Shown piece by piece: positions 11,056-36,198 of a stretch of DNA of 64,000 nucleotides. The translations under genes and the position numbers were made by a program. This stretch comes from an uncultured Cytophagales bacterium (lineage in GTDB: Bacteria > Bacteroidota > Bacteroidia > Cytophagales > Spirosomataceae). Where the stretch lies: contig CAVYGM010000042.1 in NCBI GenBank assembly GCA_963768025.1, positions 142,589-206,588 of the forward strand, written 5' to 3'. How positions within the stretch are numbered: position 1 is the first letter of the stretch; every line of letters begins with the position of its first letter. Under the pieces are notes generated by a model, which saw only the letters and a program-made list of their open reading frames with translations, had not been told where the DNA came from and did not search any database.

Positions 11056-12309
11056 ATGAAGTTCGTAAACCTGTTTCTGGGTCTTTGCATCAGTTTGCAG
11101 GCCCTAGCCTATCCGATCAGCACGGATACCTCCCGCACCGCCACTACTGCGCATTTGTCCGCCCTCAAAAACGGCCACGTACTGCTCACCTGGACCGAGA
11201 AGGACAAGAATAATCTGGTGTACTTTTACTCGGCCATTTCCAAGGACAACGGCAAGAGTTTCTCGGATAAAAAGCTCGTCTTCGCCCACGAAGGCATCGG
11301 CAGCAGCCGCCTGATGAAACCCAAGGTACTCGAAAAAGGCGACGGAACCCTGGTGGCGGTATTCGGCCTGCGGGGAACTGGTGGCCAGCCAGCCCCTCAG
11401 CCCTCCTCGCACGATAGCCACGCGGCGGGCGGGCACGACACCCACGCCGCTGCCGCCAAGCCTGCCCCGCCCAAAGGCGGCGGACGCCCGCGCGATATGC
11501 AGATTGTGTATAGCTATTCCAAAGACCAGGGTACAACATGGAGCGCGCCAGCGCCCGTCCACCAAGATCAGACCGCCGGGGTAGTACGGGGCTTTTTTGA
11601 CTCAGCCGTTATGGGCAATGGCGAAATCGCCGTGGCTTTCTTGCAGGACATTCCCAACCAGCCCCACTCACGCGACATGCGCCTGGTAACTTCCAGCGGC
11701 CTTACCTTCGGCCAGGAAAAAGTAATTGACGATTTCACCTGCGACTGCTGCAACATCAGCCTGCTCACGGATGCCAACGGGTACCTGAATGTGTACTACC
11801 GCGAAAACAACGAAAACATCCGCGACATTGCCCGGATGGTGTCAAAGGACTTTGGAAAGAGCTTCGGCACGCCGTCCATTCTGTTTCCTGACAAATGGCT
11901 GATCAACGGCTGCCCCCACAGCGGTCCTACTTCCAGTGCGCTGGGCAAGGGTTCGGTAGTGGCGTGGTTTTCGGGATCGGAAGACGCCCCCGGCCTGCGG
12001 GTGGTAAATGACCAGGGCAAAAGACTGGCGGTTATCGGGGATCCTTCGGCCAAAAATGCCTTCCTGGTGCCCACGCCTTCCGCTTCGGTGCTGCTGTGGG
12101 AAGAGGCCCGCACCGATGGCGAATCCACAACCTACTACATCGCCTACCGGAAGGTCACAGCCGAGAAAGCCGCTGACGTGCAGTGGCTCACTCCCTCCCA
12201 GCACGGCCACAGCCCAAGCGCCGTGTACACCGGCAATCAGCTGCTGGTAGCCTACGAAGTTCAGAAGGGTTCACAAAGCACCATTGAACTGAGCACGGTC
12301 AGCCTGTAA
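11056..12309 (+). CDS. Secreted BNR/Asp-box repeat protein (sialidase-like beta-propeller)
   Basis: Signal peptide, Asp-box motifs SKDNGKSF, SYSKDQGTTWS and SKDFGKSF, and a low-complexity H/A/P linker. Confidence 0.55.
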   Translation: MKFVNLFLGLCISLQALAYPISTDTSRTATTAHLSALKNGHVLLTWTEKDKNNLVYFYSAISKDNGKSFSDKKLVFAHEGIGSSRLMKPKVLEKGDGTLVAVFGLRGTGGQPAPQPSSHDSHAAGGHDTHAAAAKPAPPKGGGRPRDMQIVYSYSKDQGTTWSAPAPVHQDQTAGVVRGFFDSAVMGNGEIAVAFLQDIPNQPHSRDMRLVTSSGLTFGQEKVIDDFTCDCCNISLLTDANGYLNVYYRENNENIRDIARMVSKDFGKSFGTPSILFPDKWLINGCPHSGPTSSALGKGSVVAWFSGSEDAPGLRVVNDQGKRLAVIGDPSAKNAFLVPTPSASVLLWEEARTDGESTTYYIAYRKVTAEKAADVQWLTPSQHGHSPSAVYTGNQLLVAYEVQKGSQSTIELSTVSL

Positions 12310-15645: not shown

Positions 15646-16692
15646 ATGCAGCCCGATATCCGGCAAATTTCCGAAAAACTCGGTCTGAGCCTGCAAAATA
15701 CCCATGAACTTTACGATGTGGTGATCATCGGTGCCGGACCGGCCGGGCTATCGGCGGCGGTATACGGTGGGTCGGAAGGTTTGAAAACCCTGCTGGTTGA
15801 GAAGCGGGCTCCCGGTGGGCAGGCGGGCACCAGCTCCCGGATTGAGAACTACCTGGGCTTTCCGTCGGGCCTGAGCGGGGCGGAGCTTTCGCGCCGGGCC
15901 ATTACACAGGCTACCCGCTTTGGCGTTGATTTTCTGTCCCCCGAGGAAGTTGTCAGCATCGAGGTAAAGGACAACTATAAGATGATCACCCTGGGAAGTG
16001 GAAAAGTGATCAACACCAAGAGCATCGTAGTTACCACCGGGGTCAACTACCGGAAGCTGGAAACCAAGGGAGTTGGTGACTTTACCGGCGCGGGGGTATA
16101 CTACGGCGCCGCCACTACCGAAGCCAATTCGTGCCGCGACCGCGAGGTGTACGTGGTAGGGGGTGGCAATTCGGCCGGTCAGGGAGCCATGTACCTCTCG
16201 CAGTTTGCCAAAAACGTGTACATCATGATCCGCAAGCCTGATCTTACGGAAACCATGTCTAGCTACCTCATTGACCAGATCAATTCAACCCCCAACATTC
16301 ACATTTTGGCTTGTTCCGAGATCTTGGAAGCGAAGGGCGATGGGCACTTGCAGGAACTGCTGGTGCAGGACCTGAACACGACGCACACGCGCACGCTACC
16401 GGCCGATGCCCTGTTCATTTTTATTGGGGCCAAGCCCTACACCGAATGGATCGAAAACAACTTGCTTAAAGACGAAAGAGGATTTATCGAAACCGGCCGG
16501 GCGCTGGTCAACTACGCCAATTATAAGAAAGTCTGGAAGAAACAGCGGGAACCTTATACGCTGGAAACCTGCGTACCGGGCATTTTTGCCGCGGGTGACG
16601 TGCGGGCTTCGGCTATGAACCGCGTGGCCTCCGCCGTGGGTGAAGGTGCCATGGCTATCAGCTTTGTGCATAAGTACCTAGCCGAAATATAG
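15646..16692 (+). CDS. Thioredoxin-reductase-like FAD/NAD(P)-binding oxidoreductase; the reading frame is open upstream to 15583
   Basis: Motifs GAGPAG (FAD), GGGNSAG (NADPH) and the C-terminal …GIFAAGDV…. The in-frame upstream peptide PFNNLEAKDAPFVFFEDGSFL resembles the linker of fused RR-TrxR proteins. Confidence 0.8.
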   Translation: MQPDIRQISEKLGLSLQNTHELYDVVIIGAGPAGLSAAVYGGSEGLKTLLVEKRAPGGQAGTSSRIENYLGFPSGLSGAELSRRAITQATRFGVDFLSPEEVVSIEVKDNYKMITLGSGKVINTKSIVVTTGVNYRKLETKGVGDFTGAGVYYGAATTEANSCRDREVYVVGGGNSAGQGAMYLSQFAKNVYIMIRKPDLTETMSSYLIDQINSTPNIHILACSEILEAKGDGHLQELLVQDLNTTHTRTLPADALFIFIGAKPYTEWIENNLLKDERGFIETGRALVNYANYKKVWKKQREPYTLETCVPGIFAAGDVRASAMNRVASAVGEGAMAISFVHKYLAEI

Positions 16693-16757
16693 TTCCATCC
16701 CTAACTTTCGGGAAGTTCAAAACTTCCCGAAAGTTGACTAACCCACTCCAACTCACG

Positions 16758-17024
16758 ATGTCACAACTATGCAGCCATCTTTCCTCGCTGGAGGAAATAA
16801 AAGTCGCCTCCACCTATGAGTGCGAAGAGTGCGTAAAAGTAGGTGGGCAATGGGTACACCTGCGTACCTGCCAAACCTGCGGAGTCACGCTATGTTGTGA
16901 CTCATCCCCTTCCCGCCACGCTACGGCACATTATCAGGCCACGGGCCATCCGGTGGTAGCCTCGGCCGAGCCGGGCGAAAACTGGGTGTGGTGCAACAAG
17001 GATCAACAATTCGCTGAATACTAG
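16758..17024 (+). CDS. UBP-type zinc-finger domain protein
   Basis: Cys/His-rich ECEEC…CQTCG…LCC…H…H pattern typical of zf-UBP; small protein. A start at 16734 is possible. Confidence 0.55.
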   Translation: MSQLCSHLSSLEEIKVASTYECEECVKVGGQWVHLRTCQTCGVTLCCDSSPSRHATAHYQATGHPVVASAEPGENWVWCNKDQQFAEY

Positions 17025-25024: not shown

Positions 25025-25417
25025 ATGACAATCCATCGAAACAGAATCCACTACTCATTCCTGATCCTGGGTACGATCGGGCTAGGCCTTGCCTCCCGGT
25101 TTGGGTTTGTTCCTCCCCTGATCTACCCCTATCTGGGTGACCTCCTGTACGCCCTGATGATCTACTTCATGATTGGATTTGTATGGCGGAAGGCACCCTC
25201 GTACAAAGTGGCCGTACTGTGCCTAGTGGTGTGTTATTCCATCGAACTAAGCCAATTCTACCAGGAAGACTGGATCAATACAATCAGGAACACTACGCTG
25301 GGTGGACTGGTATTGGGATTTGGATTTCTTTGGAGTGACATGGTCTGTTATTTCATAGGAGCCATGGTGGGGGTTGGGCTGGAATATAGAGGACAAAAAA
25401 CTCAGATCGGCTCGTAG
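25025..25417 (+). CDS. DUF2809-family small membrane protein
   Basis: …LGTIGLGLASRFG…YPYLGDLLYALMIYFMIGF…, four predicted TM helices. Confidence 0.6.
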   Translation: MTIHRNRIHYSFLILGTIGLGLASRFGFVPPLIYPYLGDLLYALMIYFMIGFVWRKAPSYKVAVLCLVVCYSIELSQFYQEDWINTIRNTTLGGLVLGFGFLWSDMVCYFIGAMVGVGLEYRGQKTQIGS

Positions 25418-26410: not shown

Positions 26411-26737
26411 TGGTCGCTCGACGGGAGCCGAGCGAGGATCCTCTACTTTTTCCTGATCATCGGCACCATCGGCCTGGGCCTTGCTTCCCGGTCCGGTAGT
26501 ACCCCTCCCCTCACCTACCCCTATCTGGGTGATGTACTTTATGCCCTGATGATCTATTCTATGATTGGATTTTTGTGGCCGAAAGCCTACTCCTTCCAGG
26601 TGGCGGCCCTGTACGTACTGGTGTGCTATTCCATCGAACTAAGCCAACTATACCAGGCCGAATGGATCAATACCCTTCGGAGTACCCGGCTGGGCGGCCT
26701 CCAAGAGCCACTCATCCCACCACTATTAACCGACTAG
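26411..26737 (+). pseudogene. Truncated paralogue of the DUF2809 gene; it lacks a start codon and has a divergent, shortened C-terminus
   Basis: The frame is open from 26411. It encodes …ILYFFLIIGTIGLGLASRSGSTPPLTYPYLGDVLYALMIYSMIGFLWPKAYSFQVAALYVLVCYSIELSQLYQAEWINTLR…, about 70% identical to the product of 25025-25417. There is no ATG, GTG or TTG before the first internal Met at 26549. Confidence 0.55.
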
Positions 26738-27372: not shown

Positions 27373-28290
27373 TTATTTTTCGAAATACTCATGAGTTGTG
27401 CCTTTGTTACTATGCTCCAATAACTGTTTTATGATAATCGATGCGCGGTTGCCGTTCTCGATTATCTTACCCAAATTAATTTTGAGCAGTTCGCCACACT
27501 CCTTTTTTTCTTCGTCGCTGGTTGACGAAAGTACCTCGTCGACTAGCTCTTCCGATACTATCGAAAAATTATTTACAAAATTAAGCGGGTTCTGAATTTC
27601 GTGAGCCAGCCGTGTGGCTACCATCCCAAAAGCGGCCATTTTTTCACTTTTGATTAATTGTTCTTGGGTCTCTTCCAGTTTTTTATAAGCTGCTTGTTCG
27701 GAAATTAGTAATTCTTGTGAATGATTCTTCTCCTTTTGTAGAGTTGTCACAAACCACAGAGAAGTAGCGAAAACAACAGAAGACGCCATGCCAATGTTCA
27801 TAATATGAAACAAGGTTCGGACAGAATCGGATACGGTTACCTTGTAGCCCAGAAGAACTGGTTCGTACACCGCAGATATCACAATGATTGCAATGAACAT
27901 CAGTAAAAATAAAATGGCCTGTCTCCTTGAAAGAAAGATAGTTGCGCCTATGGGTCCTAGGAAACTCCAAAAAGTCACGAAACCACTCTGGTTTAAACTT
28001 CCAATACTCCATTGAATGAAGGCCGTAATCCAAGTGATACAGATCAGAAAAGTATATAGAAGAATCCGGTAATTGTGTAAGAAATGAGAAATAGGAATAG
28101 CCATTCCTACAATGATCAGGAACAAAAAGGGAAGAAAAGTAATAAGTCCCCAGCCGAAAATAAAGTAATATACAACAGCCCAGGCCCCCCCGCAGGTGCA
28201 GAGGGTAGTGGCAATAATGAGAACCAACGATTTCCTAAAAGTTGTTTCTGCTGTATCGCCATACTCTTTTGCATAGTTGGCAATTTTCAT
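27373..28290 (-). CDS. Membrane-anchored histidine-kinase-like protein: six or more TM helices plus coiled-coil plus HisKA (H-box LAHEIQNPL), ending before the HATPase_c domain
   Basis: 305-aa ORF. The polytopic N-terminus, coiled-coil and HisKA are read from the translation. The protein stops at …NGNRASIIIKQLLEHSNKGTTHEYFEK with no N/G1/G2 boxes following. Confidence 0.55.
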   Translation of the reverse strand: MKIANYAKEYGDTAETTFRKSLVLIIATTLCTCGGAWAVVYYFIFGWGLITFLPFLFLIIVGMAIPISHFLHNYRILLYTFLICITWITAFIQWSIGSLNQSGFVTFWSFLGPIGATIFLSRRQAILFLLMFIAIIVISAVYEPVLLGYKVTVSDSVRTLFHIMNIGMASSVVFATSLWFVTTLQKEKNHSQELLISEQAAYKKLEETQEQLIKSEKMAAFGMVATRLAHEIQNPLNFVNNFSIVSEELVDEVLSSTSDEEKKECGELLKINLGKIIENGNRASIIIKQLLEHSNKGTTHEYFEK

Positions 28291-28584: not shown

Positions 28585-29688
28585 CTATTCCAATCCAACC
28601 AACTGATAATTGGTACTCCTACCGCCGGAATCTTCCTTTTCCAAAACCCCTTGCTCCACCAGATTTTGAATGTCCCGCAGGGCCGTGTCCGGGGATACTT
28701 TGGTGAGTTTTGCCCACTTGGAAGTGGTGAGTTTGCCTTCAAAGCCGTCGAGTAGTTTGTTCAACATTAGCTTTTGCCGGTCGCTGATTTCCTTTTCGGC
28801 TAGCCAAGTCCAGTAACGAGCTTTGGTAAGAGTGGAATTGAGCGTCGTTTCGGAGGCGGATAGGGCGCGGTCGAGGCAGGATAGAAACCACCGCAACCAG
28901 TCCGTAACGTCCAAATCGCCCCTTTGCGTTTTTTCAAGGATACCGTAGTACTGCTTCCGTTCCAGCTGTATCTGCGCCGACATGCTATAAAAGCGCTGAA
29001 GACTGCGGTCAGAACGTGTCAACTGCAAGTCGGCAATAGCCCGCGCAATGCGACCATTGCCATCGTCAAAGGGATGGATCGTCACGAACCACAGATGCGC
29101 CAGGGCCGCTTTGACGACGGGATCGTAGTCGAGATTGCTATTGAACCAGTGGATAAAGGCCGCCATTTCAGCCGGAACCCTTTCGGAAGGTGGGGCCTCA
29201 AAATGAATTCTCTCCCGTCCCAAAGCCCCCGAGACCACCTGCATGGGCCCCTTCGTGTTGTCGCGCCACTCACCCACGGTAATGTTGAACATACCGCTGC
29301 GGCCGGTCGGAAACAGCGCCGCCTGCCAGCCAAAGAGTCGGTCGTCCGTAAGGGGCAGCTGATGCCTTTGGGTAGCATCCAGCAGCATCTCCACCACTCC
29401 GTCTACGTGTCGGTCGGCGGGAGCCAGGGCACCAATATCTATCCCCAGTTGTCGGGCAATGGAAGAGCGTACCTGATCGGCCGGGAGCATTTCACCCTCA
29501 ATCTCGCTCGATTTTAGAACATCCAGCGTGAGGATTTGTAAGGTAGCTTCTTCGCGCAAAGAAAAACCAAGGCTTTCCATGCGACCTACGAGCCTACCCT
29601 GCCGGTGGCGCACCTCTGCCAGCAGGGTAGAAATCGATTCGCTATCCCAGTTAAAATGGGGCCAGTCGGGTCTTTGATATACATACAT
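28585..29688 (-). CDS. Fic-family AMP-transferase with DUF4172-type N-terminus (class II, autoinhibited)
   Basis: Canonical Fic motif HPFDDGNGRIAR and an N-terminal inhibitory-helix motif SSEIEG ((S/T)xxxE(G/N)). Confidence 0.85.
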   Translation of the reverse strand: MYVYQRPDWPHFNWDSESISTLLAEVRHRQGRLVGRMESLGFSLREEATLQILTLDVLKSSEIEGEMLPADQVRSSIARQLGIDIGALAPADRHVDGVVEMLLDATQRHQLPLTDDRLFGWQAALFPTGRSGMFNITVGEWRDNTKGPMQVVSGALGRERIHFEAPPSERVPAEMAAFIHWFNSNLDYDPVVKAALAHLWFVTIHPFDDGNGRIARAIADLQLTRSDRSLQRFYSMSAQIQLERKQYYGILEKTQRGDLDVTDWLRWFLSCLDRALSASETTLNSTLTKARYWTWLAEKEISDRQKLMLNKLLDGFEGKLTTSKWAKLTKVSPDTALRDIQNLVEQGVLEKEDSGGRSTNYQLVGLE

Positions 29689-29689
29689 G

Positions 29690-29718
29690 ATATTCGCCGC
29701 ATACTATGCGGCGAATAT
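29690..29718. promoter_or_regulatory. Perfect palindrome ATATTCGCCGCATA-c-TATGCGGCGAATAT ending 1 nt before the fic start codon
   Basis: Read from the sequence: 14-bp arms with a 1-nt centre. On the fic mRNA it would form a hairpin covering the translation-initiation region. Alternatively it is an operator for a dimeric DNA-binding protein. Confidence 0.4.
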
Positions 29719-29788
29719 AGCCTTTATTCACCGCACTGGCAAGCAAGATATCCGCACTTCATGCGGTGAAAAGCCTCAACTCGGTACA

Positions 29789-31321
29789 CTAATCCTCCCG
29801 CCCCTCCTTCCGATTGGCATCGGCCATCCTGACAATCTTGGGCGTAAACTTCGCCAGTACCTCCACGAGGTCACGTTGGGCGTCGATGACGGTTTCGATG
29901 TCTTTATACACCATTGGGGCCTCGTCTAGGTCGCCGCCGATGAGCTGAATGTCGGCTTCTTCTACTACCTTCTTCAACTGCGCGTGGGTAATGGTTTTCA
30001 ACGCCTGCGTGCGGGACATTAAGCGCCCAGCTCCGTGCGAAGCCGAGTTGATGGAGTCGGCGTGACCCCGTCCCCGTACCACAAAACCGGGTGTAGTCAT
30101 AGAGCCTGGTATGATGCCCAACACGCCGGGCCCGGCCGGGGTAGCCCCCTTGCGGTGTACCATCACCTCGCGGCCGTCGGCCAGTTGCTCCTTCCAGGCA
30201 AAGTTGTGATGGTTTTCGATCATTGCCAGCGGTTTTTCGCGCAGGGCTTTGGCTACCTTGCTGTGGATTTCGTGGTGGTTGGCTGAGGCGTACTCACCGG
30301 CCAGGTTCATGGCTATCCAGTACTCCTGCCCTTCTTCGGTATCCAGGTCGAGCCAGGCGAGGTGGGCGGCCTGTTTGGGCAATCGGGTTTTCTGCATAGC
30401 CAGTTTGGAGTAGTAGTTGGCCACGTTGCCGCCAAAGCCCCGCGAACCCGAATGCGACAGCAGCGCCAGGTATTGGCCCGCAGGTAGGTTGAGGCCGTTA
30501 GCTTTCTCTTCTCCGTATACGTCCACGAGGCCCCACTCCACAAAGTGGTTGCCGGTGCCGGAGGTACCTAGCTGCCGGTAGGCCTTGTCTTTGAGGTTGC
30601 GGATCACCTTGGTGGCGTGCCACTCGGGCCGGTCCATCACGCTCTCGTCAAACTTGTCGCGTACCTCGCCCCCCATGCCAAATTTGGTATTTTCGAGCAG
30701 CGTCTTTTGCAGCAGGTGCGGCTCGCGCTTCAAAAAATCTGGCGTCATATCGAAGATAGACAGGCACATGCGGCAAGCAATATCCACGCCCACGGCGTAG
30801 GGAATGACGGTGTTCGGCTCCGTGGCCAGCACGCCGCCAATGGGTAGTCCGTAGCCTTGGTGGGCATCGGGCATGAGCGCCCCGGCCACCGAAATGGGCA
30901 GGCTCGCGGCAGTTTCCATTTGCCGGAGAGCGCCCTCTTCGATGTGCTCGCGGCCAAAAATAGCGTAGGGTAGCTGCTCGGCTCGCAAGTCAAAGGCCTG
31001 TGTCCCCTGCTGCTCCCCGGCCGGAAGCACAAACGGCGGTGGCTCCGGCGGCAGGTAGGTGGCTCCCGCTACGCTCAGCGGCACGGCAATGCCCTGCTTG
31101 TTGAGAGCGTAGATGGCCTGCGCCAGGTTGGTGACCTTGCTTCTGGAGTAGGCGTATTTTTTGGGGTTCCGCAGCACCTGCGCCAGCAGGCCCATTACTT
31201 TTTCTTTGGGGTACTTGGCCCGCTGCACCAGCCCGTTGGCCACCCGCAGAAATGTCGCGTGCAGGTCGGCAGGAATGGGGGCCAGGATCAGGATATCGTC
31301 AAGGGTGATTGGGGTTTCCAT
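29789..31321 (-). CDS. rtcB: RtcB-family RNA 3'-phosphate ligase with a roughly 120-aa N-terminal extension
   Basis: Conserved RtcB core (…MPDAHQGYGLPIGGV…, …GTSGTGNHF…, …HNFAW…, …SASHGAGR…). The start is assigned to the ATG at 31319-31321 (METPITL…). Confidence 0.9.
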   Translation of the reverse strand: METPITLDDILILAPIPADLHATFLRVANGLVQRAKYPKEKVMGLLAQVLRNPKKYAYSRSKVTNLAQAIYALNKQGIAVPLSVAGATYLPPEPPPFVLPAGEQQGTQAFDLRAEQLPYAIFGREHIEEGALRQMETAASLPISVAGALMPDAHQGYGLPIGGVLATEPNTVIPYAVGVDIACRMCLSIFDMTPDFLKREPHLLQKTLLENTKFGMGGEVRDKFDESVMDRPEWHATKVIRNLKDKAYRQLGTSGTGNHFVEWGLVDVYGEEKANGLNLPAGQYLALLSHSGSRGFGGNVANYYSKLAMQKTRLPKQAAHLAWLDLDTEEGQEYWIAMNLAGEYASANHHEIHSKVAKALREKPLAMIENHHNFAWKEQLADGREVMVHRKGATPAGPGVLGIIPGSMTTPGFVVRGRGHADSINSASHGAGRLMSRTQALKTITHAQLKKVVEEADIQLIGGDLDEAPMVYKDIETVIDAQRDLVEVLAKFTPKIVRMADANRKEGRED

Positions 31322-31348
31322 GGTTGATTTTATGTCTATAGAAAAATT

Positions 31349-31428
31349 AAAACCGCAAAGACGCGATGGGCGCAAGGATTCAATTGCTTTATTTTTAATT
31401 CTTTGCGCCTTAGCGTCTTTGCGGTTTT
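31349..31428 (-). terminator. About 80-nt nested hairpin (outer arms AAAACCGCAAAGACGC / GCGTCTTTGCGGTTTT, inner GGCGCAAGGA / TCTTTGCGCC) between the SPFH stop and the rtcB start
   Basis: Read from the sequence. On the minus-strand transcript it is followed by UUAAUUUUUC, so it is a plausible intrinsic terminator for the SPFH gene. A role as a regulatory leader for rtcB is also possible. Confidence 0.5.
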
Positions 31429-31447
31429 AAAAATATTGGGTATCTAC

Positions 31448-32554
31448 TTAATTTTTAGAAGAAACAAAAATCTGCTTTAATTGGTCAATAATCTGACCGC
31501 TGCCGGATACAGAAATGGAGCTGATTTTGTCGGCGATTTTTTCTACGTACTCCATCTCCTTTAACTTCCACAGCATGTCGTTGTCCTCCATGAGCTTGGC
31601 GGTATTTAGCAAGCTACGCGTGGATGCGGTTTCCTCCCGACGCATGATGATGTTGGCCTGGGCTTTCTTTTCGGCCATTAACACCTGATTCATGATGTCG
31701 CGCATATCCCCCGGCAGGATAATGTCGCGAACGCCTCCACCCATCAACTCTACGCCCAGTAGCCCGGCTTTGGCTTTGGTCGCGTGCAGAATGGCTTCGG
31801 CCATGTCGGCTTTTTTATCGAGCAATTCGTCGAGGGTCAAGCCCCCGATGTACGCCCGTAAGGCCAGCTGAATCTGTACGTATAGTTGCTTGTCGTACTC
31901 CCTGTTTTCGACTAACGCTAACTTCACGTCATTGACCTGGTACTGCACATAAAAGCTAATCCGAATGGAGGCTTTGTCTTTGGTCAAAATCTCCTGACCC
32001 GAGATTTCCATCTGCTGCCGACGGGTATCGACTTTCGAAAAGTTAATCGGCGTGTTATTTTTCCACCAGTAATACTGTCCGGGGCCCAGCACGCTATCGA
32101 ATTTCCAGTCTATGTATAAAATGGCTTTCTCGTGCTGTTCCACGGTGACGGTCCGTGTGTAGGTACCCAAAGCCTGAGGCAGCAGCGACGCCAGATCCAC
32201 TTCGGCCGGAATAGCCAACTGAGTAACATCCAGAACCTGGTAGTGGTAGTTCCTTACGCCCTTCCAATACGCCCAGCGTCCGGTCCGCAAAACGCCCTGG
32301 AACAGATCATTTTCGTACTGCAACGCAATCTCGTTGTCTTTTACTTCCACCACGTCCAGTTCGGCCGCAATGGCTGGGTACGAAAGCAGGATCGTCAGGT
32401 CGCAGGGCGGATTTTTTAATAATTCACCCCGGTTATAGACGTATACGGTTTCGTTGGACCAAATCCAGTGTTTCCCCGGTGAAAGTACTTTCTGGAAATC
32501 GCCGTGTTTGAATACTAACCCGATTTGCAGGGCCTGGATGCGAACAGTTTTCAT
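31448..32554 (-). CDS. SPFH/band-7 domain protein (slipin/flotillin-like)
   Basis: SPFH core (…YVQYQVNDVKLALVENREYDKQLYVQIQLALRAYIGGLTLDELLDKK…) and a coiled-coil C-terminus. There is no obvious N-terminal TM anchor. Confidence 0.75.
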   Translation of the reverse strand: MKTVRIQALQIGLVFKHGDFQKVLSPGKHWIWSNETVYVYNRGELLKNPPCDLTILLSYPAIAAELDVVEVKDNEIALQYENDLFQGVLRTGRWAYWKGVRNYHYQVLDVTQLAIPAEVDLASLLPQALGTYTRTVTVEQHEKAILYIDWKFDSVLGPGQYYWWKNNTPINFSKVDTRRQQMEISGQEILTKDKASIRISFYVQYQVNDVKLALVENREYDKQLYVQIQLALRAYIGGLTLDELLDKKADMAEAILHATKAKAGLLGVELMGGGVRDIILPGDMRDIMNQVLMAEKKAQANIIMRREETASTRSLLNTAKLMEDNDMLWKLKEMEYVEKIADKISSISVSGSGQIIDQLKQIFVSSKN

Positions 32555-32868
32555 GATTATTATGGATAAATGGTTTCAATGTATACCAGCAGAAGGCTAC
32601 CCCTTGAGCTAACACGGAGACAGGTGGTGAGAGCAATCGGAAAAGAGGTTCGAAAAAAGGGTTCAGGACCAAGTGCCAGCGCCGAACCGAAGCCCGGGAG
32701 CCAACCGCATTGAGGCTGAATGCTTTTTCAGAAGCTGCCTTCCTTCCTGCCCACACCCGGTCTGTCTACTTGGTGCCGGCCCAAGTGTGGTGAATCTGGC
32801 AAGCCAGGGCACCACGGGGTAGCGTCTGCTGATTTTTTTTGGTGGCCTTTTAGAAGTGACCTTCTTCT

Positions 32869-33018
32869 TCTGTTGCTCTACCAACTGAGCTATCTTGCCA
32901 GGGCAAGAAGAGGACTCGAACCTCTGACTGACAGATCACAGTACTCTGTTGCTCTACCATTGAGCTTCCCTGCCGGAGCAAGGGGAGGACTCGAACCTCC
33001 ATGCCACAGAGTACAAAA
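32869..33018 (-). pseudogene. Cluster of three tRNA-derived segments on the minus strand: a 3' half (about 32975-33018), a near-full-length tRNA-like unit with a 9-nt anticodon loop (32901-32974), and a 5' half (32869-32899)
   Basis: Minus-strand read of the middle unit: GGCAGGGAAGCTCAATGGTAGAGCAACAGAGTACTGTGATCTGTCAGTCAGAGGTTCGAGTCCTCTTCTTGCCC. The acceptor, D, T (AGAGG/TTCGAGT/CCTCT) and anticodon stems (ACAGA/TCTGT) all pair, but the anticodon loop is GUACUGUGA. Flanking pieces are GGCAAGATAGCTCAGTTGGTAGAGCAACAGA… and …GTACTCTGTGGCATGGAGGTTCGAGTCCTCCCCTTGCTCC. Confidence 0.6.
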
Positions 33019-33203
33019 CGAAACCAACCCTTAGCCAACAGCATATCGGTAATCAGCGACTCCGACACTATGGGGCTATGTAAAAACCCACATCCGGTTT
33101 GGCTACGTTGCTTTCGTCCCAACAAAGGTTAGCGCCAGGTACGCAGTCTTTTTGCGTAGATGAAAAAACTTTTTACTTTTCTGAAAATATTTTCTTTTTA
33201 CCT

Positions 33204-34217
33204 ATGCCTGCCAACCGAAATGCCCTCGTCCGCTACAAAACCATTGATGCCTGCCTGCGCAACCGGCAGCGCAACTGGACACTCGACGACCTGATGGAAA
33301 AAGTATCAGAAGCCCTATATGAGTACGAGGGTATCGACAAAGGCATCAGCCGACGCACGGTGCAGGCCGATATCCAATTGATGCGGAGCGATAAGCTGGG
33401 CTACTTTGCCCCCATCATCATTCGCGACAAAAAGTATTATACCTACGAAGATCCCGGGTATAGTATCACCAATATTCCGCTGTCGGATGGTGATCTGGCG
33501 CGCATGAATGAGGCCGTGGAGGTATTGAAGCAGTTCAAGGGCTTCTCCCACTTTACCTCCCTCAACGAAGTGGTGCAAAAGCTGGAAGATCATGTGTTTT
33601 CGTCGGCCCGAAAAATGGCTCCTATTATTGATTTTGAGAAAAACGAAAACCTGAAAGGACTTCACTTTCTGGATGATTTGTACCAGGCCGTAATCCAAAA
33701 AAAGGCGGTACTCCTGACGTACCAGTCATTTTCAGCCCACCTCCCACAAACGTTTCCCTTTCATGTGTGGTGGCTAAAAGAGTTCAAAAATCGTTGGTTT
33801 GCGGTGGGCGTTCGTACTGAGCAGCGACACGTGACGAACCTGGCCCTGGACCGGATCATGAACCTGGACTCTGCACCTGATACCGACTACGTAGCAAACC
33901 AACAACTTGACCCGGAACAGTACTACCGCGACGTGATCGGCGTGACGGTGAATGCGAACCTACGACCCCTGAAAGTGAAACTATTCGTCGCCCAGCTTCA
34001 TGCACCCTACGTCGAAACCAAACCTCTCCACCACTCGCAGCAGGTAAAGGAGCGGCGCCCGGACGGCCTTGTCATTCAGCTGAAAGTACAGCACAACTTC
34101 GAACTCGAAAAAGAAATCCTCAGCTTTGGCGAAGGCATGGTGGTGCTCGAACCCGAGAAGCTCCGCCAAATTATCAGCCGACGAATGAAGGCCGCCCTTA
34201 CTTCCTACGAGCCGTGA
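33204..34217 (+). CDS. HTH-WYL-WCX transcriptional regulator (BrxR/CapW/PafBC-like)
   Basis: ATG at 33204 (MPANRNALVRYKTIDACLRN…). N-terminal wHTH, central WYL-like segment (…HVWWLKEFKNRWFAVGV…) and a C-terminal extension. Confidence 0.75.
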   Translation: MPANRNALVRYKTIDACLRNRQRNWTLDDLMEKVSEALYEYEGIDKGISRRTVQADIQLMRSDKLGYFAPIIIRDKKYYTYEDPGYSITNIPLSDGDLARMNEAVEVLKQFKGFSHFTSLNEVVQKLEDHVFSSARKMAPIIDFEKNENLKGLHFLDDLYQAVIQKKAVLLTYQSFSAHLPQTFPFHVWWLKEFKNRWFAVGVRTEQRHVTNLALDRIMNLDSAPDTDYVANQQLDPEQYYRDVIGVTVNANLRPLKVKLFVAQLHAPYVETKPLHHSQQVKERRPDGLVIQLKVQHNFELEKEILSFGEGMVVLEPEKLRQIISRRMKAALTSYEP

Positions 34218-34569: not shown

Positions 34570-34689
34570 TTACATGATCTGCACCACCCTGACAACCTCA
34601 CTGGTCGAAGCATACCGGCCTGCTTCAATTTGTTTTTGTATAAAGGCATCAAAATGCTCTCCAACGGTAATGAATGCATTTCCTTTCAT
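34570..34689 (-). pseudogene. Truncated ParD/CopG-type (RHH) antitoxin remnant (39 codons)
   Basis: Minus-strand ORF MKGNAFITVGEHFDAFIQKQIEAGRYASTSEVVRVVQIM* matches the N-terminal half of ParD antitoxins (…GRYASASEV(I/V)R…). No intact partner toxin ORF is nearby, and the surrounding 34.2-35.1 kb has no ORF of 60 aa or more. Confidence 0.5.
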
Positions 34690-35842: not shown

Positions 35843-35915
35843 TGGTGATGGACGGAATCGAACCGCCGACACAAGGATTTTCAGTCCTTTGCTCTACCGA
35901 CTGAGCTACATCACC
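35843..35915 (-). tRNA. tRNA-Phe (anticodon GAA)
   Basis: Minus-strand read: GGTGATGTAGCTCAGTCGGTAGAGCAAAGGACTGAAAATCCTTGTGTCGGCGGTTCGATTCCGTCCATCACCA. Canonical cloverleaf, anticodon loop CUGAAAA, and no encoded CCA. Confidence 0.9.
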
Positions 35916-36198
35916 GTGCCAGTTGGCCCCGTTTGGGACTGCAAAAATAGAAGGCTGGTTTGGGTTTGCAAAACATTTTTTCGATTTCTTTCAAAAACTT
36001 TCTCTCGTCAGCCTCCAAATCCCTCAGCAGAAAGGAATTGGATACTTTTTGCGCATTCTTTCCCAAAATAATCTAACTTACTCTCTTGACCGCCTGCTTT
36101 TTTTCTCGATATTTGTGGTAGTATGCATGCATACTACTTTAAAAACATTTTTTGTACTTCACTTGTCCTATATTCACGGATCAACCACTTGACCAACC

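What the first reader, a model, noticed from the sequence alone, without database searches (positions are those of the whole stretch)
28585..34217. Fic + RtcB + SPFH gene set divergent from a BrxR/CapW-type WYL regulator: a candidate RNA-damage / defence module
Three consecutive minus-strand genes encode a class-II Fic AMP-transferase (HPFDDGNGRIAR, with the inhibitory SSEIEG), an RtcB RNA ligase with a roughly 120-aa N-terminal extension, and an SPFH/band-7 protein. They are transcribed divergently from an HTH-WYL-WCX regulator. WYL regulators of the BrxR/CapW/DriD type commonly gate defence or damage-response operons. RtcB heals cleaved tRNA and rRNA, and Fic and SPFH proteins recur in toxin and defence contexts. 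The same segment also holds structured palindromes at the gene junctions, tRNA-derived debris, toxin-antitoxin remnants and a nearby tRNA-Phe, which is the look of an accessory island. I do not know of a described Fic-RtcB-SPFH/WYL system. The genes are separated by 100-126 bp gaps, each with a hairpin, so co-transcription is not assured.
Basis: partly seen in the sequence, partly recalled or inferred. Interest (0 to 1): 0.7.

Follow-up and report, generated by a model that had tools for sequence, protein, structure and literature searches.

The report
WYL-controlled SPFH–RtcB RNA-repair operon
This is a conserved bacterial RNA-repair cassette (a regulator, a tRNA-mimicking RNA, a scaffold protein and an RNA ligase) of a kind already predicted by comparative genomics in 2016, and the neighbouring Fic gene is an unrelated, self-regulated hitch-hiker.

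Summary
They are not one four-gene module.

The conserved unit is the WYL regulator, a structured ~650-nt leader RNA, a soluble SPFH protein and RtcB. It forms two tandem, circularly permuted tRNA-like modules (T-arm, closed acceptor hairpin, D-arm) resembling the tRNA-like domain of bacterial Y RNA YrlA, with strong covariation.

An inverted repeat, YRCGCA-N7-TGCGYR, lies between WYL and the leader. Across related Bacteroidota loci it recurs upstream of RtcB, Ro60–Y RNA units and SPFH leaders (55 sites; about 1–3 expected by chance). That defines a WYL regulon.

This matches the Band-7/RtcB/tRNA-like-RNA repair system predicted by Burroughs & Aravind (2016). It parallels RtcR control in enterobacteria and TrcR control in Anabaena.

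Fic is not part of it. It is absent from 93 of 94 related RtcB or SPFH loci, including the closest relative. Four close homologues sit in unrelated contexts, two of them clearly mobile or defence-linked. The palindromes in the RtcB–Fic gap are Fic's own operator cassette, which travels with the gene.

Verdict: a new member of a known, experimentally untested kind. Interest is moderate.

The parts
33204..34217 (+). WYL-WCX one-component transcription factor (337 aa), with a sub-threshold N-terminal HTH_11. It is the predicted regulator of the divergent RNA-repair operon and of itself.
   Evidence: Pfam WYL E = 3e-7 and WCX E = 2.7e-13. HTH_11 E = 7.7e-4. Orthologues (E 1e-100 to 1e-185) lie divergently next to RtcB in 32 of 57 loci. 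The only PDB similarity is a weak PafBC-like match.
33140..33158 (.). Inverted repeat TACGCA-N7-TGCGTA, the candidate WYL operator, about 45 nt from the WYL ATG and centred between two back-to-back promoters.
   Evidence: It is the only exact match in the window. It is present in 30 of 32 WYL loci. There are 55 sites in 1.475 Mb of related loci. The placed sites lie in the WYL/RtcB gap or upstream of Ro60, SPFH leaders or RtcB. In L074 the operator varies with lineage (CTGTGCA...TGCACAG, two copies).
33123..33130 (-). AACCTTTG, a Bacteroidota-type -7 promoter element (TAnnTTTG-like) pointing towards the leader, SPFH and RtcB. The predicted transcription start is around 33112-33117.
   Evidence: It is conserved 12-18 nt downstream of the operator in nearly all loci. 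The assignment as a -7 box rests on general knowledge of Bacteroidota promoters and is an inference.
33018..33116 (-). 5' domain of the leader RNA: a three-way junction of about 100 nt that ends in the conserved UAUGCUGUUGGC motif.
   Evidence: It is conserved in 10 leaders. RNAalifold gives a consensus three-way junction with some compensatory pairs. It has no Rfam match.
32942..33014 (-). tRNA-like module A, circularly permuted: a 9-bp closing stem (GUACUCUGU/ACAGAGUAC), T-arm, closed acceptor hairpin and D-arm.
   Evidence: CM R1 scores 78.3 bits. Rfam YrlA scores 37.4 bits over model positions 17-92. Covariation test: 92.9% of cells paired, 15 of 20 pairs compensatory, 0 of 500 shuffles as good.
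32866..32939 (-). tRNA-like module A', a second tandem permuted module. It occupies the place of the mini-module (T-arm + hairpin + CGUUGG) seen in relatives.
   Evidence: CM R1 scores 88.1 bits. Rfam YrlA scores 41.5 bits. The Rfam 'tRNA' hit at 32901-32974 (48.7 bits) is the junction of A and A'. It has a 9-nt anticodon loop, ARAGORN does not call it, and single-module relatives cannot form it.
32852..32865 (-). Conserved 3' hairpin AGAAG-GUCA-CUUCU followed by AAAAGGCC. It is not followed by a U-tract.
   Evidence: It is conserved across the aligned leaders and is predicted in the consensus fold.
32584..32834 (-). Distal leader domain closed by a long-range helix of about 20 bp. The 5' strand is at 32816-32834 and the 3' strand at 32584-32603, ending 29 nt before the SPFH ATG. 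A possible RNase III-type processing stem (inference).
   Evidence: RNAduplex finds the same positional helix in WIN, L081, L083, L001, L015, L085, L087, L012, L073 and L059, with covarying sequences.
31448..32554 (-). Soluble SPFH/Band-7 (stomatin/slipin-like) protein, 368 aa, with an extra N-terminal domain of about 135 aa. The predicted oligomeric scaffold partner of the tRNA-like RNA.
   Evidence: Pfam Band_7 E = 1e-26. The closest solved structure is stomatin at E = 7e-13. No transmembrane segment: maximum Kyte-Doolittle score 1.44. A tRNA-like module always lies directly upstream. A 37%-identical orthologue in Citrobacter is divergent from RtcR.
31347..31430 (-). Very stable stem-loop (16 + 7 bp) in the SPFH-RtcB gap, followed by UUUUAAUUUUU. 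A candidate attenuator or mRNA-stabilising hairpin.
   Evidence: dG -42.8 kcal/mol, z = -9. It is unique in the window. Relatives have equally strong hairpins of unrelated sequence at the same junction.
29789..31321 (-). RtcB 3'-phosphate/5'-OH RNA ligase, 510 aa. It has an N-terminal five-helix domain (residues 1-90), a low-confidence linker, and the catalytic core from about residue 130.
   Evidence: Pfam RtcB E = 1.3e-88. Solved RtcBs match at E about 1e-35. It is 70-87% identical at full length across Spirosomataceae. The N-domain has pLDDT 81-92 and no fold match. The catalytic motifs (DAHQGYG, DIAC, GNHF, HSGSRG, HGAGR) are visible in the translation.
28585..29770 (-). NOT part of the system. 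A class II Fic (DUF4172-Fic-wHTH) with its own promoter and operator cassette: palindromes at 29690-29718 and 29751-29770, and a half-site at 29727-29735. It is inserted downstream of RtcB.
   Evidence: PADLOC SoFic E = 1.9e-46. It is absent next to RtcB in relatives. Homologues sit in unrelated contexts. The TTCACCGCA-N5-TGCGGTGAA cassette is conserved with the gene. A sigma-70-like promoter is at 29742-29714.

Best explanation
The locus is a WYL-regulated RNA-repair operon of the SPFH/Band-7-RtcB type.

**Proposed mechanism**
1. A dimeric WYL transcription factor binds the inverted repeat at 33140-33158. This site lies between its own promoter and the promoter of the divergent operon.
2. RNA damage, most likely tRNA or rRNA fragments produced by ribotoxins or translational stress, is sensed through the WYL domain and switches the operon on.
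3. The transcript begins with a structured leader of about 650 nt. The leader carries a 5' three-way-junction domain, two permuted tRNA-like modules that mimic the tRNA-like domain of Y RNA YrlA, a 3' hairpin, and a distal domain closed by a long-range helix that may be a processing stem.
4. The soluble SPFH protein oligomerises and binds the tRNA-like RNA. Together they form an RNP analogous to Ro60-Y RNA that assists or organises RtcB.
5. RtcB reseals 2',3'-cyclic-phosphate or 3'-phosphate ends to 5'-OH ends.

**What is shown**
- gene content and domains;
- the RNA structure, by covariation;
- conservation of the linkage;
- distribution of the operator.

**What is inferred**
- that WYL binds the repeat;
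- the sign of regulation;
- the ligand;
- SPFH-RNA binding;
- RNA processing;
- the substrates.

Fic is an independent, self-regulated gene that landed in the variable region downstream of RtcB.
For: **Domains:**

**tRNA-like modules**
- Sub-threshold Rfam YrlA hits over the tRNA-like part of the model.
- Covariation on 12 modules from 11 loci: 92.9% of cells paired, 15 of 20 pairs compensatory, 0 of 500 shuffles as good, and the slid controls fall to 38-53%.
- CM R1 finds modules on the RtcB strand directly upstream of SPFH or downstream of Ro60. They occur in 14 of 18 loci that have SPFH or Ro60, and in 0 of 39 loci with neither.

**Leader:** conservation and consensus fold and the covarying long-range helix.

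**WYL and the operator**
- WYL is divergent to RtcB in 32 of 57 loci, and the operator is present in 30 of those 32.
- There are 55 operator sites in 1.475 Mb. I estimate about 1-3 by chance, assuming equal base frequencies.
- Sites lie upstream of RtcB, Ro60 (L024, L037, L041), SPFH leaders and a Y-RNA module in L004.
- L073 has a second operator before RtcB.
- L074 has a lineage-specific variant operator in two copies.

**Literature**
- Band-7 + RtcB + b7a-tRNA, and occasionally YrlA next to Band-7 (10.1101/312249).
- WYL transcription factors predicted to sense RNA with cyclic ends and to regulate RNA-repair pathways (PMC9503650).
- The Anabaena TrcR regulon contains rtcB, a long tRNA array and a slipin gene (PMC8421152 and PMC10272220).
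- In P. aeruginosa the SPFH protein PaFlo8 is embedded in the rtc locus (PMC13086221).
- Citrobacter has RtcR divergent to the same SPFH family, with a T-arm/hairpin mini-module in the gap.

**Fic is excluded:**
Against: - There are no expression or binding data, so the sign of regulation (repressor like BrxR/CapW, or activator like PafBC/DriD) is open.
- The modules score below Rfam's YrlA gathering threshold (41.5 and 37.4 bits against 69) and lack a Ro-binding stem.
- SPFH-RNA association rests only on gene linkage and analogy.
- The window's SPFH-RtcB gap holds a very stable hairpin followed by a U-rich tract. It could terminate a fraction of transcripts, so co-transcription of RtcB is not assured.
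- 25 of 57 RtcB loci lack the WYL gene, and many WYL-RtcB loci lack SPFH. SPFH and its RNA are therefore an optional add-on, not obligatory for RtcB.
- I could not read Burroughs & Aravind 2016 directly.
- Read-through from RtcB into Fic cannot be excluded, because no canonical terminator separates them.
Confidence: 0.8

Rival explanations
1. Fic, RtcB and SPFH form one WYL-gated defence or RNA-damage module, with Fic as the toxin or effector arm and RtcB as the healing arm.
For: In the window the three genes are adjacent on one strand with no canonical terminator between RtcB and Fic. Fic matches the PADLOC SoFic model at E = 1.9e-46.
Against: Fic is absent from 93 of 94 related RtcB or SPFH loci, including the closest relatives L094 and L081. 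In L030 it lies on the other side of WYL. Four close Fic homologues are in unrelated contexts. Fic carries its own conserved promoter and operator cassette. No WYL operator precedes Fic.
Confidence: 0.04
2. The tRNA-like elements are non-functional remnants of a decayed tRNA gene array. The 650-bp gap is only promoter DNA plus junk.
For: Related loci carry real tRNA arrays upstream of SPFH or RtcB: L004 has 15, L055 has 28 and L068 has 12. Module number varies even between close strains. One junction scores as tRNA in Rfam.
Against: All four helices of the permuted fold show compensatory covariation. The acceptor is a closed hairpin, which is not expected from tRNA decay. The same fold follows Ro60 genes as Y RNA. 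The whole leader, including its non-tRNA 5' domain and long-range helix, is conserved across genera.
Confidence: 0.04
3. The leader is mainly a cis-acting regulatory RNA rather than a trans-acting RNP component. For example, it could be a tRNA-mimic attenuator or autoregulatory binding site for RtcB or SPFH, or a sensor of tRNA-modifying or tRNA-cleaving activities.
For: It lies in the 5' UTR position with no terminator after the modules. The long-range helix ends 26-34 nt before the ATG in eight of nine Spirosomataceae-type leaders, close enough to influence translation initiation. A second strong hairpin lies before RtcB.
Against: The homologous modules in Ro60 loci lie downstream of the protein gene, not in a leader. 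In Salmonella, YrlA is a stable RNA that binds Ro60. This rival is compatible with the main explanation rather than exclusive of it.
Confidence: 0.15
4. The cassette is an anti-phage or abortive-infection defence system carried on a mobile island, like the BREX or CBASS loci gated by BrxR and CapW.
For: The regulator has the WYL-WCX architecture and matches PADLOC WYL models. The flanks are variable and rich in TA genes, with a tRNA-Phe nearby.
Against: RtcB and SPFH have no PADLOC hit. The conserved cassette has no nuclease or toxin effector. RtcB is 70-87% identical across a whole family, in a vertical-looking pattern. There are no phage hits, and the only plasmid-collection hits are distant ones on megaplasmids or chromids. 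Characterised analogues respond to translational stress or DNA damage. A counter-ribotoxin role, including against phage- or toxin-induced tRNA cleavage, remains compatible.
Confidence: 0.08

Closest known systems
SPFH/Band-7-RtcB RNA-repair systems with a band-7-associated tRNA-like RNA (b7a-tRNA), predicted by Burroughs & Aravind, NAR 2016. I know this paper through citing papers only.
   Same: RtcB lies next to a soluble Band-7 protein with a tRNA-like ncRNA gene beside it. The citing paper notes that YrlA is occasionally found next to the Band-7 protein, which is the situation here.
   Different: The RNA here is a composite leader of about 280-650 nt: a 5' three-way junction, two tandem permuted modules, a hairpin and a helix-closed distal domain. 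[quoted passage not shown] The regulator is a WYL factor with a defined operator. I could not check whether the 2016 survey lists these Spirosomataceae loci or the operator.
The rsr-yrlBA-rtcBA operon of Salmonella, controlled by RtcR (a CARF-sigma54 activator). Sources: Chen et al. 2014, PMC4201824; Hughes et al. 2020, PMC7790460.
   Same: A divergent one-component regulator, a tRNA-mimic RNA encoded inside the operon, an RNA-binding scaffold protein and RtcB. The modules match the tRNA-like part of Rfam YrlA. Related Bacteroidota loci carry Ro60 with the same modules under the same operator.
   Different: The window has no Ro60. No RtcA or RtcR was seen in the ORFs from 24 to 40 kb. SPFH replaces Ro60, WYL replaces RtcR, and the RNA lacks the Ro-binding stem.
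The TrcR translational-stress regulon of Anabaena PCC 7120 (PMC8421152, PMC10272220).
   Same: One repressor with a short operator at the promoters co-controls rtcB, a slipin/SPFH gene (alr0740) and a tRNA array. In Bacteroidota relatives, tRNA arrays, SPFH and RtcB are physically adjacent.
   Different: TrcR is a ribbon-helix-helix protein, its operator is a direct repeat, and its target genes are dispersed. No tRNA-mimic RNA has been reported there.
WYL-domain regulators BrxR, CapW, DriD and PafBC.
   Same: The HTH-WYL-WCX architecture, a divergent arrangement, and a palindromic site in the shared promoter region, which also implies autoregulation. The best, though weak, PDB match is PafBC.
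   Different: The target is an RNA-repair operon rather than BREX, CBASS or SOS-independent DNA-repair genes. Sequence similarity to solved members is marginal (E = 0.022). The ligand and the sign of regulation are unknown.
Class II Fic AMP-transferases and the single-gene defence candidate SoFic.
   Same: The Fic motif HPFDDGNGRIAR, the N-terminal inhibitory SSEIEG, and the DUF4172-Fic-wHTH layout. PADLOC SoFic E = 1.9e-46.
   Different: It falls far below the NCBIfam SoFic equivalog cut-off (50.6 against 550 bits). It is relevant only as a neighbour and is not part of the RNA-repair unit.

Membership tests
SPFH/Band-7-RtcB RNA-repair system (Burroughs & Aravind 2016) | An RtcB-family ligase with an intact catalytic core | tested here: met
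   Pfam RtcB E = 1.3e-88. Solved RtcBs match at E about 1e-35. The metal and GMP-histidine motifs are visible in the translation. Assigning those motifs rests on my knowledge of RtcB.
SPFH/Band-7-RtcB RNA-repair system (Burroughs & Aravind 2016) | A Band-7/SPFH protein encoded next to RtcB on the same strand, cytoplasmic (no membrane anchor) | tested here: met
   Band_7 E = 1e-26. It lies 126 bp upstream of RtcB. No hydrophobic segment: maximum Kyte-Doolittle score 1.44. The adjacency is conserved in L001, L004, L012, L013, L015, L073, L081, L083-L085, L087 and L094.
SPFH/Band-7-RtcB RNA-repair system (Burroughs & Aravind 2016) | A cognate tRNA-like ncRNA gene adjacent to the Band-7 gene | tested here: met
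   Two modules at 32866-33014 with covariation support. A full or mini module lies upstream of SPFH in every locus with enough upstream sequence.
SPFH/Band-7-RtcB RNA-repair system (Burroughs & Aravind 2016) | Physical and functional association of the RNA, the Band-7 protein and RtcB | not testable with these tools
   This needs RNP purification. The b7a-tRNA was still experimentally unvalidated in 2018.
YrlA Y RNA (Rfam RF02553) | A score at or above the family gathering threshold of 69 bits | tested here: not met
   The scores are 41.5 and 37.4 bits.
YrlA Y RNA (Rfam RF02553) | A tRNA-like domain: T-arm, closed acceptor-like hairpin and D-arm enclosed by a stem | tested here: met
   The alignment covers model positions 17-92 and 23-89. 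The fold is supported by covariation.
YrlA Y RNA (Rfam RF02553) | A Ro60-binding stem formed by the 5' and 3' ends, and an adjacent Ro60 (rsr) gene | tested here: not met
   Model positions 1-16 and 93-114 are unmatched. tblastn with a Bacteroidota Ro60 finds nothing in the 64-kb window.
Canonical tRNA gene | A cloverleaf with a 7-nt anticodon loop, called by tRNA finders and conserved in orthologous positions | tested here: not met
   The Rfam tRNA score of 48.7 bits exceeds the gathering score of 29. However, the anticodon loop has 9 nt and ARAGORN makes no call. Single-module relatives (L094, L015) cannot form this cloverleaf.
WYL one-component regulators (BrxR/CapW/PafBC/DriD type) | The wHTH-WYL-WCX domain architecture | tested here: met
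   WYL and WCX score above the Pfam cut-offs. HTH_11 is only sub-threshold, at 19.7 against 25 bits.
WYL one-component regulators (BrxR/CapW/PafBC/DriD type) | Divergent from the controlled operon, with a conserved palindromic site in the shared promoter region | tested here: met
   The inverted repeat at 33140-33158 is conserved in 30 of 32 WYL loci and recurs before other RNA-repair units. Binding itself was not tested.
WYL one-component regulators (BrxR/CapW/PafBC/DriD type) | Controls a phage-defence system (the BrxR/CapW sense) | tested here: not met
   The controlled genes are RNA-repair genes. RtcB and SPFH have no PADLOC hit.
Rtc system (RtcR-RtcA-RtcB) | An RtcR CARF-sigma54 activator and an RtcA cyclase next to RtcB | tested here: not met
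   None of the ORFs between 24 and 40 kb is RtcR or RtcA. The rest of the window was not scanned protein by protein.
Class II Fic / SoFic | The Fic motif HxFx(D/E)GNGRxxR plus the N-terminal inhibitory (S/T)xxxE(G/N) | tested here: met
   HPFDDGNGRIAR and SSEIEG are in the translation. Pfam Fic E = 3.8e-17 and DUF4172 E = 2.9e-34.
Class II Fic / SoFic | Orthology to SoFic (NCBIfam equivalog cut-off of 550 bits) | tested here: not met
   It scores 50.6 bits. The PADLOC SoFic model does match at E = 1.9e-46.

The most novel reading that the evidence does not exclude
Bacteroidota use a WYL transcription factor with the operator YRCGCA-N7-TGCGYR as a third, independently evolved master switch of the RNA-repair and translational-stress response, after RtcR (CARF) and TrcR (RHH).

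In this reading:
- the WYL domain senses damaged tRNA or RNA ends;
- the ~650-nt leader is a new composite RNA, cut at its long-range helix to release a Y-RNA-like tRNA mimic;
- that RNA loads into a soluble stomatin-like SPFH cage together with RtcB, forming a dedicated RNA-repair compartment.

The 5' domain of the leader and the N-terminal helical domain of RtcB, neither of which has a detectable relative, would be the docking elements.
Probability: 0.25. Interest if true: 0.65.

Novelty: new member of a known kind. Interest (0 to 1): 0.4.

Why it matters
RtcB repair operons with tRNA-mimic RNAs and Ro60 or SPFH scaffolds are widespread. What the scaffold and RNA actually do is still unknown, and the Band-7 branch has never been tested experimentally.

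This locus family offers several things that experiments need:
- a compact, conserved version in culturable soil Bacteroidota (Spirosoma, Dyadobacter, Larkinella, Mucilaginibacter);
- a defined candidate operator;
- a covariation-supported RNA structure;
- natural variants with one, two or mini modules, with SPFH or Ro60, and with or without tRNA arrays.

It also gives a concrete candidate for a WYL domain that senses RNA damage. That is relevant to the open question of what WYL ligands are.

For the scan itself there are two lessons. Adjacency alone (Fic) was misleading, and 'tRNA debris' next to RNA-repair genes deserves a structural check.

Tried and rejected
**Reading the key paper.** Burroughs & Aravind 2016 is not held, by DOI or by PMC id. 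I relied on citing papers.

**The window's own protein.** An exact look-up of P0001 found nothing on record.

**RtcB N-terminal extension**
- Pfam at E up to 10 gave nothing.
- A homology search with the extension alone returned only 4 fragments.
- The AlphaFold model of the domain is confident (pLDDT 81), but Foldseek against the PDB gave no hit below E = 4. The fold stays unassigned.
- The full-length RtcB model was poor (mean pLDDT 54) because the alignment was shallow.

**Other searches**
- The SPFH-seeded metagenome scan returned only 7 loci.
- The junction palindromes are not dispersed repeats or MITEs. Each is unique in the window.
- A near-match to the operator at 16557-16575 has one mismatch and falls within chance expectation, so I rejected it.
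- Rfam found nothing in the Citrobacter RtcR-slipin gap, and my model scored only 13.9 bits there. The T-arm/hairpin mini-module was seen by eye only.

**Ideas considered and rejected**
- That the Rfam tRNA hit is a real tRNA.
- That the cassette is phage- or plasmid-borne.
- That Fic's palindrome is a terminator for RtcB. It has no U-tract, it abuts the Fic ATG, and it travels with Fic.

Full report
**1. Observation**

The four ORFs are at the stated coordinates, and Pfam, NCBIfam and PADLOC confirm their domains.
- Fic (28585-29688, minus strand) is DUF4172-Fic-wHTH and contains HPFDDGNGRIAR and SSEIEG.
- RtcB starts at the ATG at 31321 and is 510 aa, identical to a database protein. Its catalytic core starts aligning to solved RtcBs at about residue 130.
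- The SPFH protein (31448-32554) has Band_7 over residues 137-308 and no hydrophobic segment.
- The regulator (33204-34217, plus strand) has WYL and WCX domains and a sub-threshold HTH_11.

The gaps are 100, 126 and 649 bp. Both junction hairpins are real. tRNA-Phe and a truncated ParD antitoxin lie nearby.

**2. The 'tRNA debris' is a structured RNA**

Rfam scores a tRNA at 32901-32974 on the minus strand (48.7 bits), but ARAGORN does not call it. In E-value mode, two tandem matches to the tRNA-like part of the bacterial Y RNA YrlA appear at 32867-32933 and 32941-33014, scoring 41.5 and 37.4 bits.

Each module is a circularly permuted tRNA: a closing stem, a T-arm, an acceptor stem closed into a hairpin, and a D-arm.

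I aligned twelve such modules from eleven SPFH loci and counted pairs. 92.9% of cells pair, and 15 of 20 pairs carry compensatory changes. No shuffle in 500 reaches the observed values, and sliding the partners drops pairing to 38-53%.

The Rfam 'tRNA' is the junction of the two modules. It has a 9-nt anticodon loop. It cannot form in relatives with one module (L015, L094). It arises only because both modules share complementary closing-stem sequences.

**3. The whole leader is conserved**

Ten leaders from Spirosomataceae and relatives align from the WYL start to the SPFH start. The consensus fold gives:
- a 5' three-way-junction domain of about 100 nt, with no Rfam match;
- the module(s);
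- a 3' hairpin, AGAAG...CUUCU.

Module content varies between loci.

| Module content | Loci |
|---|---|
| Two full modules | the window |
| One full module | L094, L015 |
| One full plus a mini-module (T-arm + hairpin + CGUUGG) | L081, L083, L086, L087 |
| Mini-module only | L001, L012, L085 |

Downstream, a long-range helix of about 20 bp closes a domain of about 230 nt. In the nine Spirosomataceae-type leaders its 3' strand ends 26-34 nt before the SPFH ATG in eight and 55 nt before in L073; it ends 42 nt before in L059. Its sequence covaries: GCUACCCC/GGGGUAGC in the window, GGUGUAUGC/GCAUACGCC in L015, and AGAAAUUGUUUGCC/GGCAAACAAUUUC in L059. L068 gave no convincing duplex. Such a helix could be an RNase III-type processing stem. 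That is an inference.

**4. Synteny seeded on RtcB**

I fetched eighty genome loci across Bacteroidota, plus relatives obtained by exact-protein look-up.

Among 57 loci with adequate flanks:

| Feature | Count |
|---|---|
| WYL orthologue present | 32 |
| Operator present, among WYL loci | 30 of 32 |
| SPFH present | 8 |
| Ro60 present | 12 |
| RlaP present | 8 |
| Fic present | 1 (the window itself) |

The WYL orthologue is usually divergent and immediately upstream of RtcB.

My covariance model finds modules in 14 of 18 loci that have SPFH or Ro60, and in 0 of 39 loci with neither. Outside tRNA arrays, every hit lies on the RtcB strand, either directly upstream of SPFH or directly downstream of Ro60.

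L074 is a full repair operon: WYL, then Ro60, three modules, DinB, two RlaP genes, an exoribonuclease and RtcB.

SPFH-seeded loci with at least 67% identity all have RtcB downstream where the contig allows.

**5. Operator**

An inverted repeat, (A)CTGCGCA-N7-TGCGCAG(T), lies about 35-45 nt from the WYL ATG. A conserved CTTTG element follows it, pointing at the operon.
- The pattern YRCGCA-N7-TGCGYR occurs 55 times in 1.475 Mb of loci. My estimate of the chance expectation, assuming equal base frequencies, is about 1-3.
- Sites lie in the WYL/RtcB gap and upstream of Ro60: L024 at 11962 against a Ro60 start at 12028, L037 at 10183 against 10249, and L041 at 11427 against 11492.
- Sites also lie upstream of SPFH leaders (L013), upstream of a Y-RNA module inside a tRNA array (L004), and before RtcB when it is separated (L073, L077).
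- L074 has a variant, CTGTGCA...TGCACAG, in two copies.
- The window has one exact copy, at 33140-33158, and none before Fic.

This is strong comparative evidence for a WYL regulon. Binding and the sign of regulation are not shown.

**6. Fic is a bystander**
- The closest relative, L094 (RtcB in the same 90% cluster), has WYL, a 577-nt leader, Band_7 and RtcB. These are followed by a cNMP-binding protein, a hydrolase, PIN and a TA pair, with no Fic.
- Salmonirosea (L081, 87% identical RtcB) also lacks it.
- Four Fic homologues of 69-78% identity sit in a polysaccharide-utilisation locus, an integrase/AbiE/HsdM/GmrSD island, a TraG/TrwC/ArdC conjugative element, and next to a resolvase.
- The palindromes in the RtcB-Fic gap belong to a cassette, TTCACCGCA-N5-TGCGGTGAA. 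It usually has two copies, one abutting the ATG, and it accompanies the gene in those unrelated contexts.
- The binding protein is most likely Fic's own C-terminal wHTH. That is an inference.

The region between RtcB and a conserved DUF2809 gene is variable and rich in TA genes in all three genomes. The 'island' look therefore belongs to the flanks.

**7. Comparison with known systems**
- A citing paper summarises Burroughs & Aravind 2016 as follows. In some bacteria RtcB is encoded next to a Band-7 protein and a predicted tRNA-like RNA (b7a-tRNA). Occasionally YrlA is next to Band-7. The RNA had not been validated experimentally.
- Aravind-lab papers cite the same work for WYL transcription factors. 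These are predicted to sense RNA with cyclic ends and to control RNA-repair pathways.
- In Salmonella, RtcR controls rsr-yrlBA-rtcBA and responds to tRNA fragments.
- In Anabaena, the RHH repressor TrcR controls rtcB (77-fold), a long tRNA array and a slipin gene (42-fold). The authors call TrcR functionally equivalent to RtcR.
- In Citrobacter, a 37%-identical SPFH orthologue is divergent from RtcR across a 449-nt gap. The gap holds, by eye, a T-arm/hairpin mini-module.
- In P. aeruginosa an SPFH gene is embedded in the rtc locus.

The window therefore holds the Bacteroidota, WYL-regulated member of a known family of systems in which regulators and scaffolds are swapped.

**8. Remaining unknowns**
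- The RtcB N-terminal domain (residues 1-90) is confidently helical but has no fold match.
- A very stable hairpin followed by a U-rich tract separates SPFH from RtcB in the window. Relatives have equally strong hairpins of unrelated sequence at the same place. This suggests differential expression or transcript stabilisation, and it leaves co-transcription formally open.

**9. Verdict**

The real entity is a WYL-controlled leader-RNA/SPFH/RtcB repair operon, a new member of a predicted but experimentally untested kind. Fic is unrelated. Interest is moderate (0.4). It is not surprising to a specialist, but it is a well-defined and tractable entry point to what SPFH and tRNA-mimic RNAs do for RtcB and what this WYL domain senses.

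Noticed in passing
L055:1052-7286; L004:1904-8169; L068:834-2066; also L059, L079, L073, L077: Long tRNA gene arrays (28, 15 and 12 genes) lie on the RtcB strand just upstream of RtcB or SPFH in several Bacteroidota loci. In L004 the SPFH leader starts immediately after the last tRNA, and an operator plus a Y-RNA module sits inside the array. This resembles the cyanobacterial L-arrays that are co-regulated with rtcB.
   Followed up: partly
window 29690-29770; L090, L092 and L093 upstream of Fic: Fic genes of this family carry a conserved upstream cassette of palindromes, TTCACCGCA-N5-TGCGGTGAA, with one copy abutting the ATG. The cassette stays with the gene in unrelated genomic contexts. This suggests autoregulation by the C-terminal wHTH.
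   Followed up: yes
window 31347-31430; the same junction in L081, L001, L085, L087, L012, L004 and L013: A strong hairpin (dG -16 to -43 kcal/mol) sits between SPFH and RtcB in nearly every locus. Its position is conserved but its sequence is unrelated between genera. Its function is unknown.
   Followed up: partly
window 31052-31321 (RtcB residues 1-90): A conserved five-helix N-terminal domain of Bacteroidota RtcB, confidently modelled (pLDDT 81-92), with no Pfam family and no structural neighbour in the PDB.
   Followed up: partly
L073:9660 and L073:7588; L074:3750 and L074:4036: Some loci carry two operators, one per transcription unit. L074 has a lineage-specific variant, CTGTGCAAATAGATTGCACAG. 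This fits co-evolution of the regulator and its operator.
   Followed up: partly
L095:3960-7913 (Citrobacter freundii NZ_CP151862.1): RtcR is divergent from a slipin/SPFH orthologue (37% identity, 93% coverage) and a nucleotidyltransferase. The 449-nt gap contains a T-arm + hairpin + CUGGUUG element like the mini-module of Spirosomataceae leaders. Rfam finds nothing there.
   Followed up: partly
window 34570-34689 (-): A truncated ParD-type antitoxin (39 aa, Pfam positions 2-35 of 81, E = 2.8e-11) lies in an 870-bp stretch without ORFs, between the WYL gene and an HTH_3-like gene next to tRNA-Phe. This looks like a remnant of an element integrated at the tRNA.
   Followed up: partly
window 26549-26737 (+) and 27373-28290 (-): A DUF2809 fragment duplicates the intact gene at 25025-25417. 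There is also a membrane histidine-kinase-like ORF with only a weak HisKA match and no ATPase domain. This indicates gene decay in the variable region downstream of RtcB and Fic.
   Followed up: partly
window 16666-16758 (-): ARAGORN calls a 93-nt tRNA-Gln here. Rfam at gathering threshold reports no tRNA at this position. It may be a false positive or an unusual tRNA-like element.
   Followed up: no
window 35882-35959 (-): A weak hit of the module model (23.6 bits) overlaps the 5' half of tRNA-Phe and the sequence upstream of it. It could be chance, or a partial tRNA duplication such as an att-site remnant.
   Followed up: no
L081:3175-3791; L094:12273-14425: PIN-domain toxins and a DUF433/DUF5615 pair lie in the variable regions flanking the cassette in the two closest genomes. 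PIN toxins can cleave tRNA, so the proximity to an RtcB repair operon may not be accidental. I did not test this.
   Followed up: no
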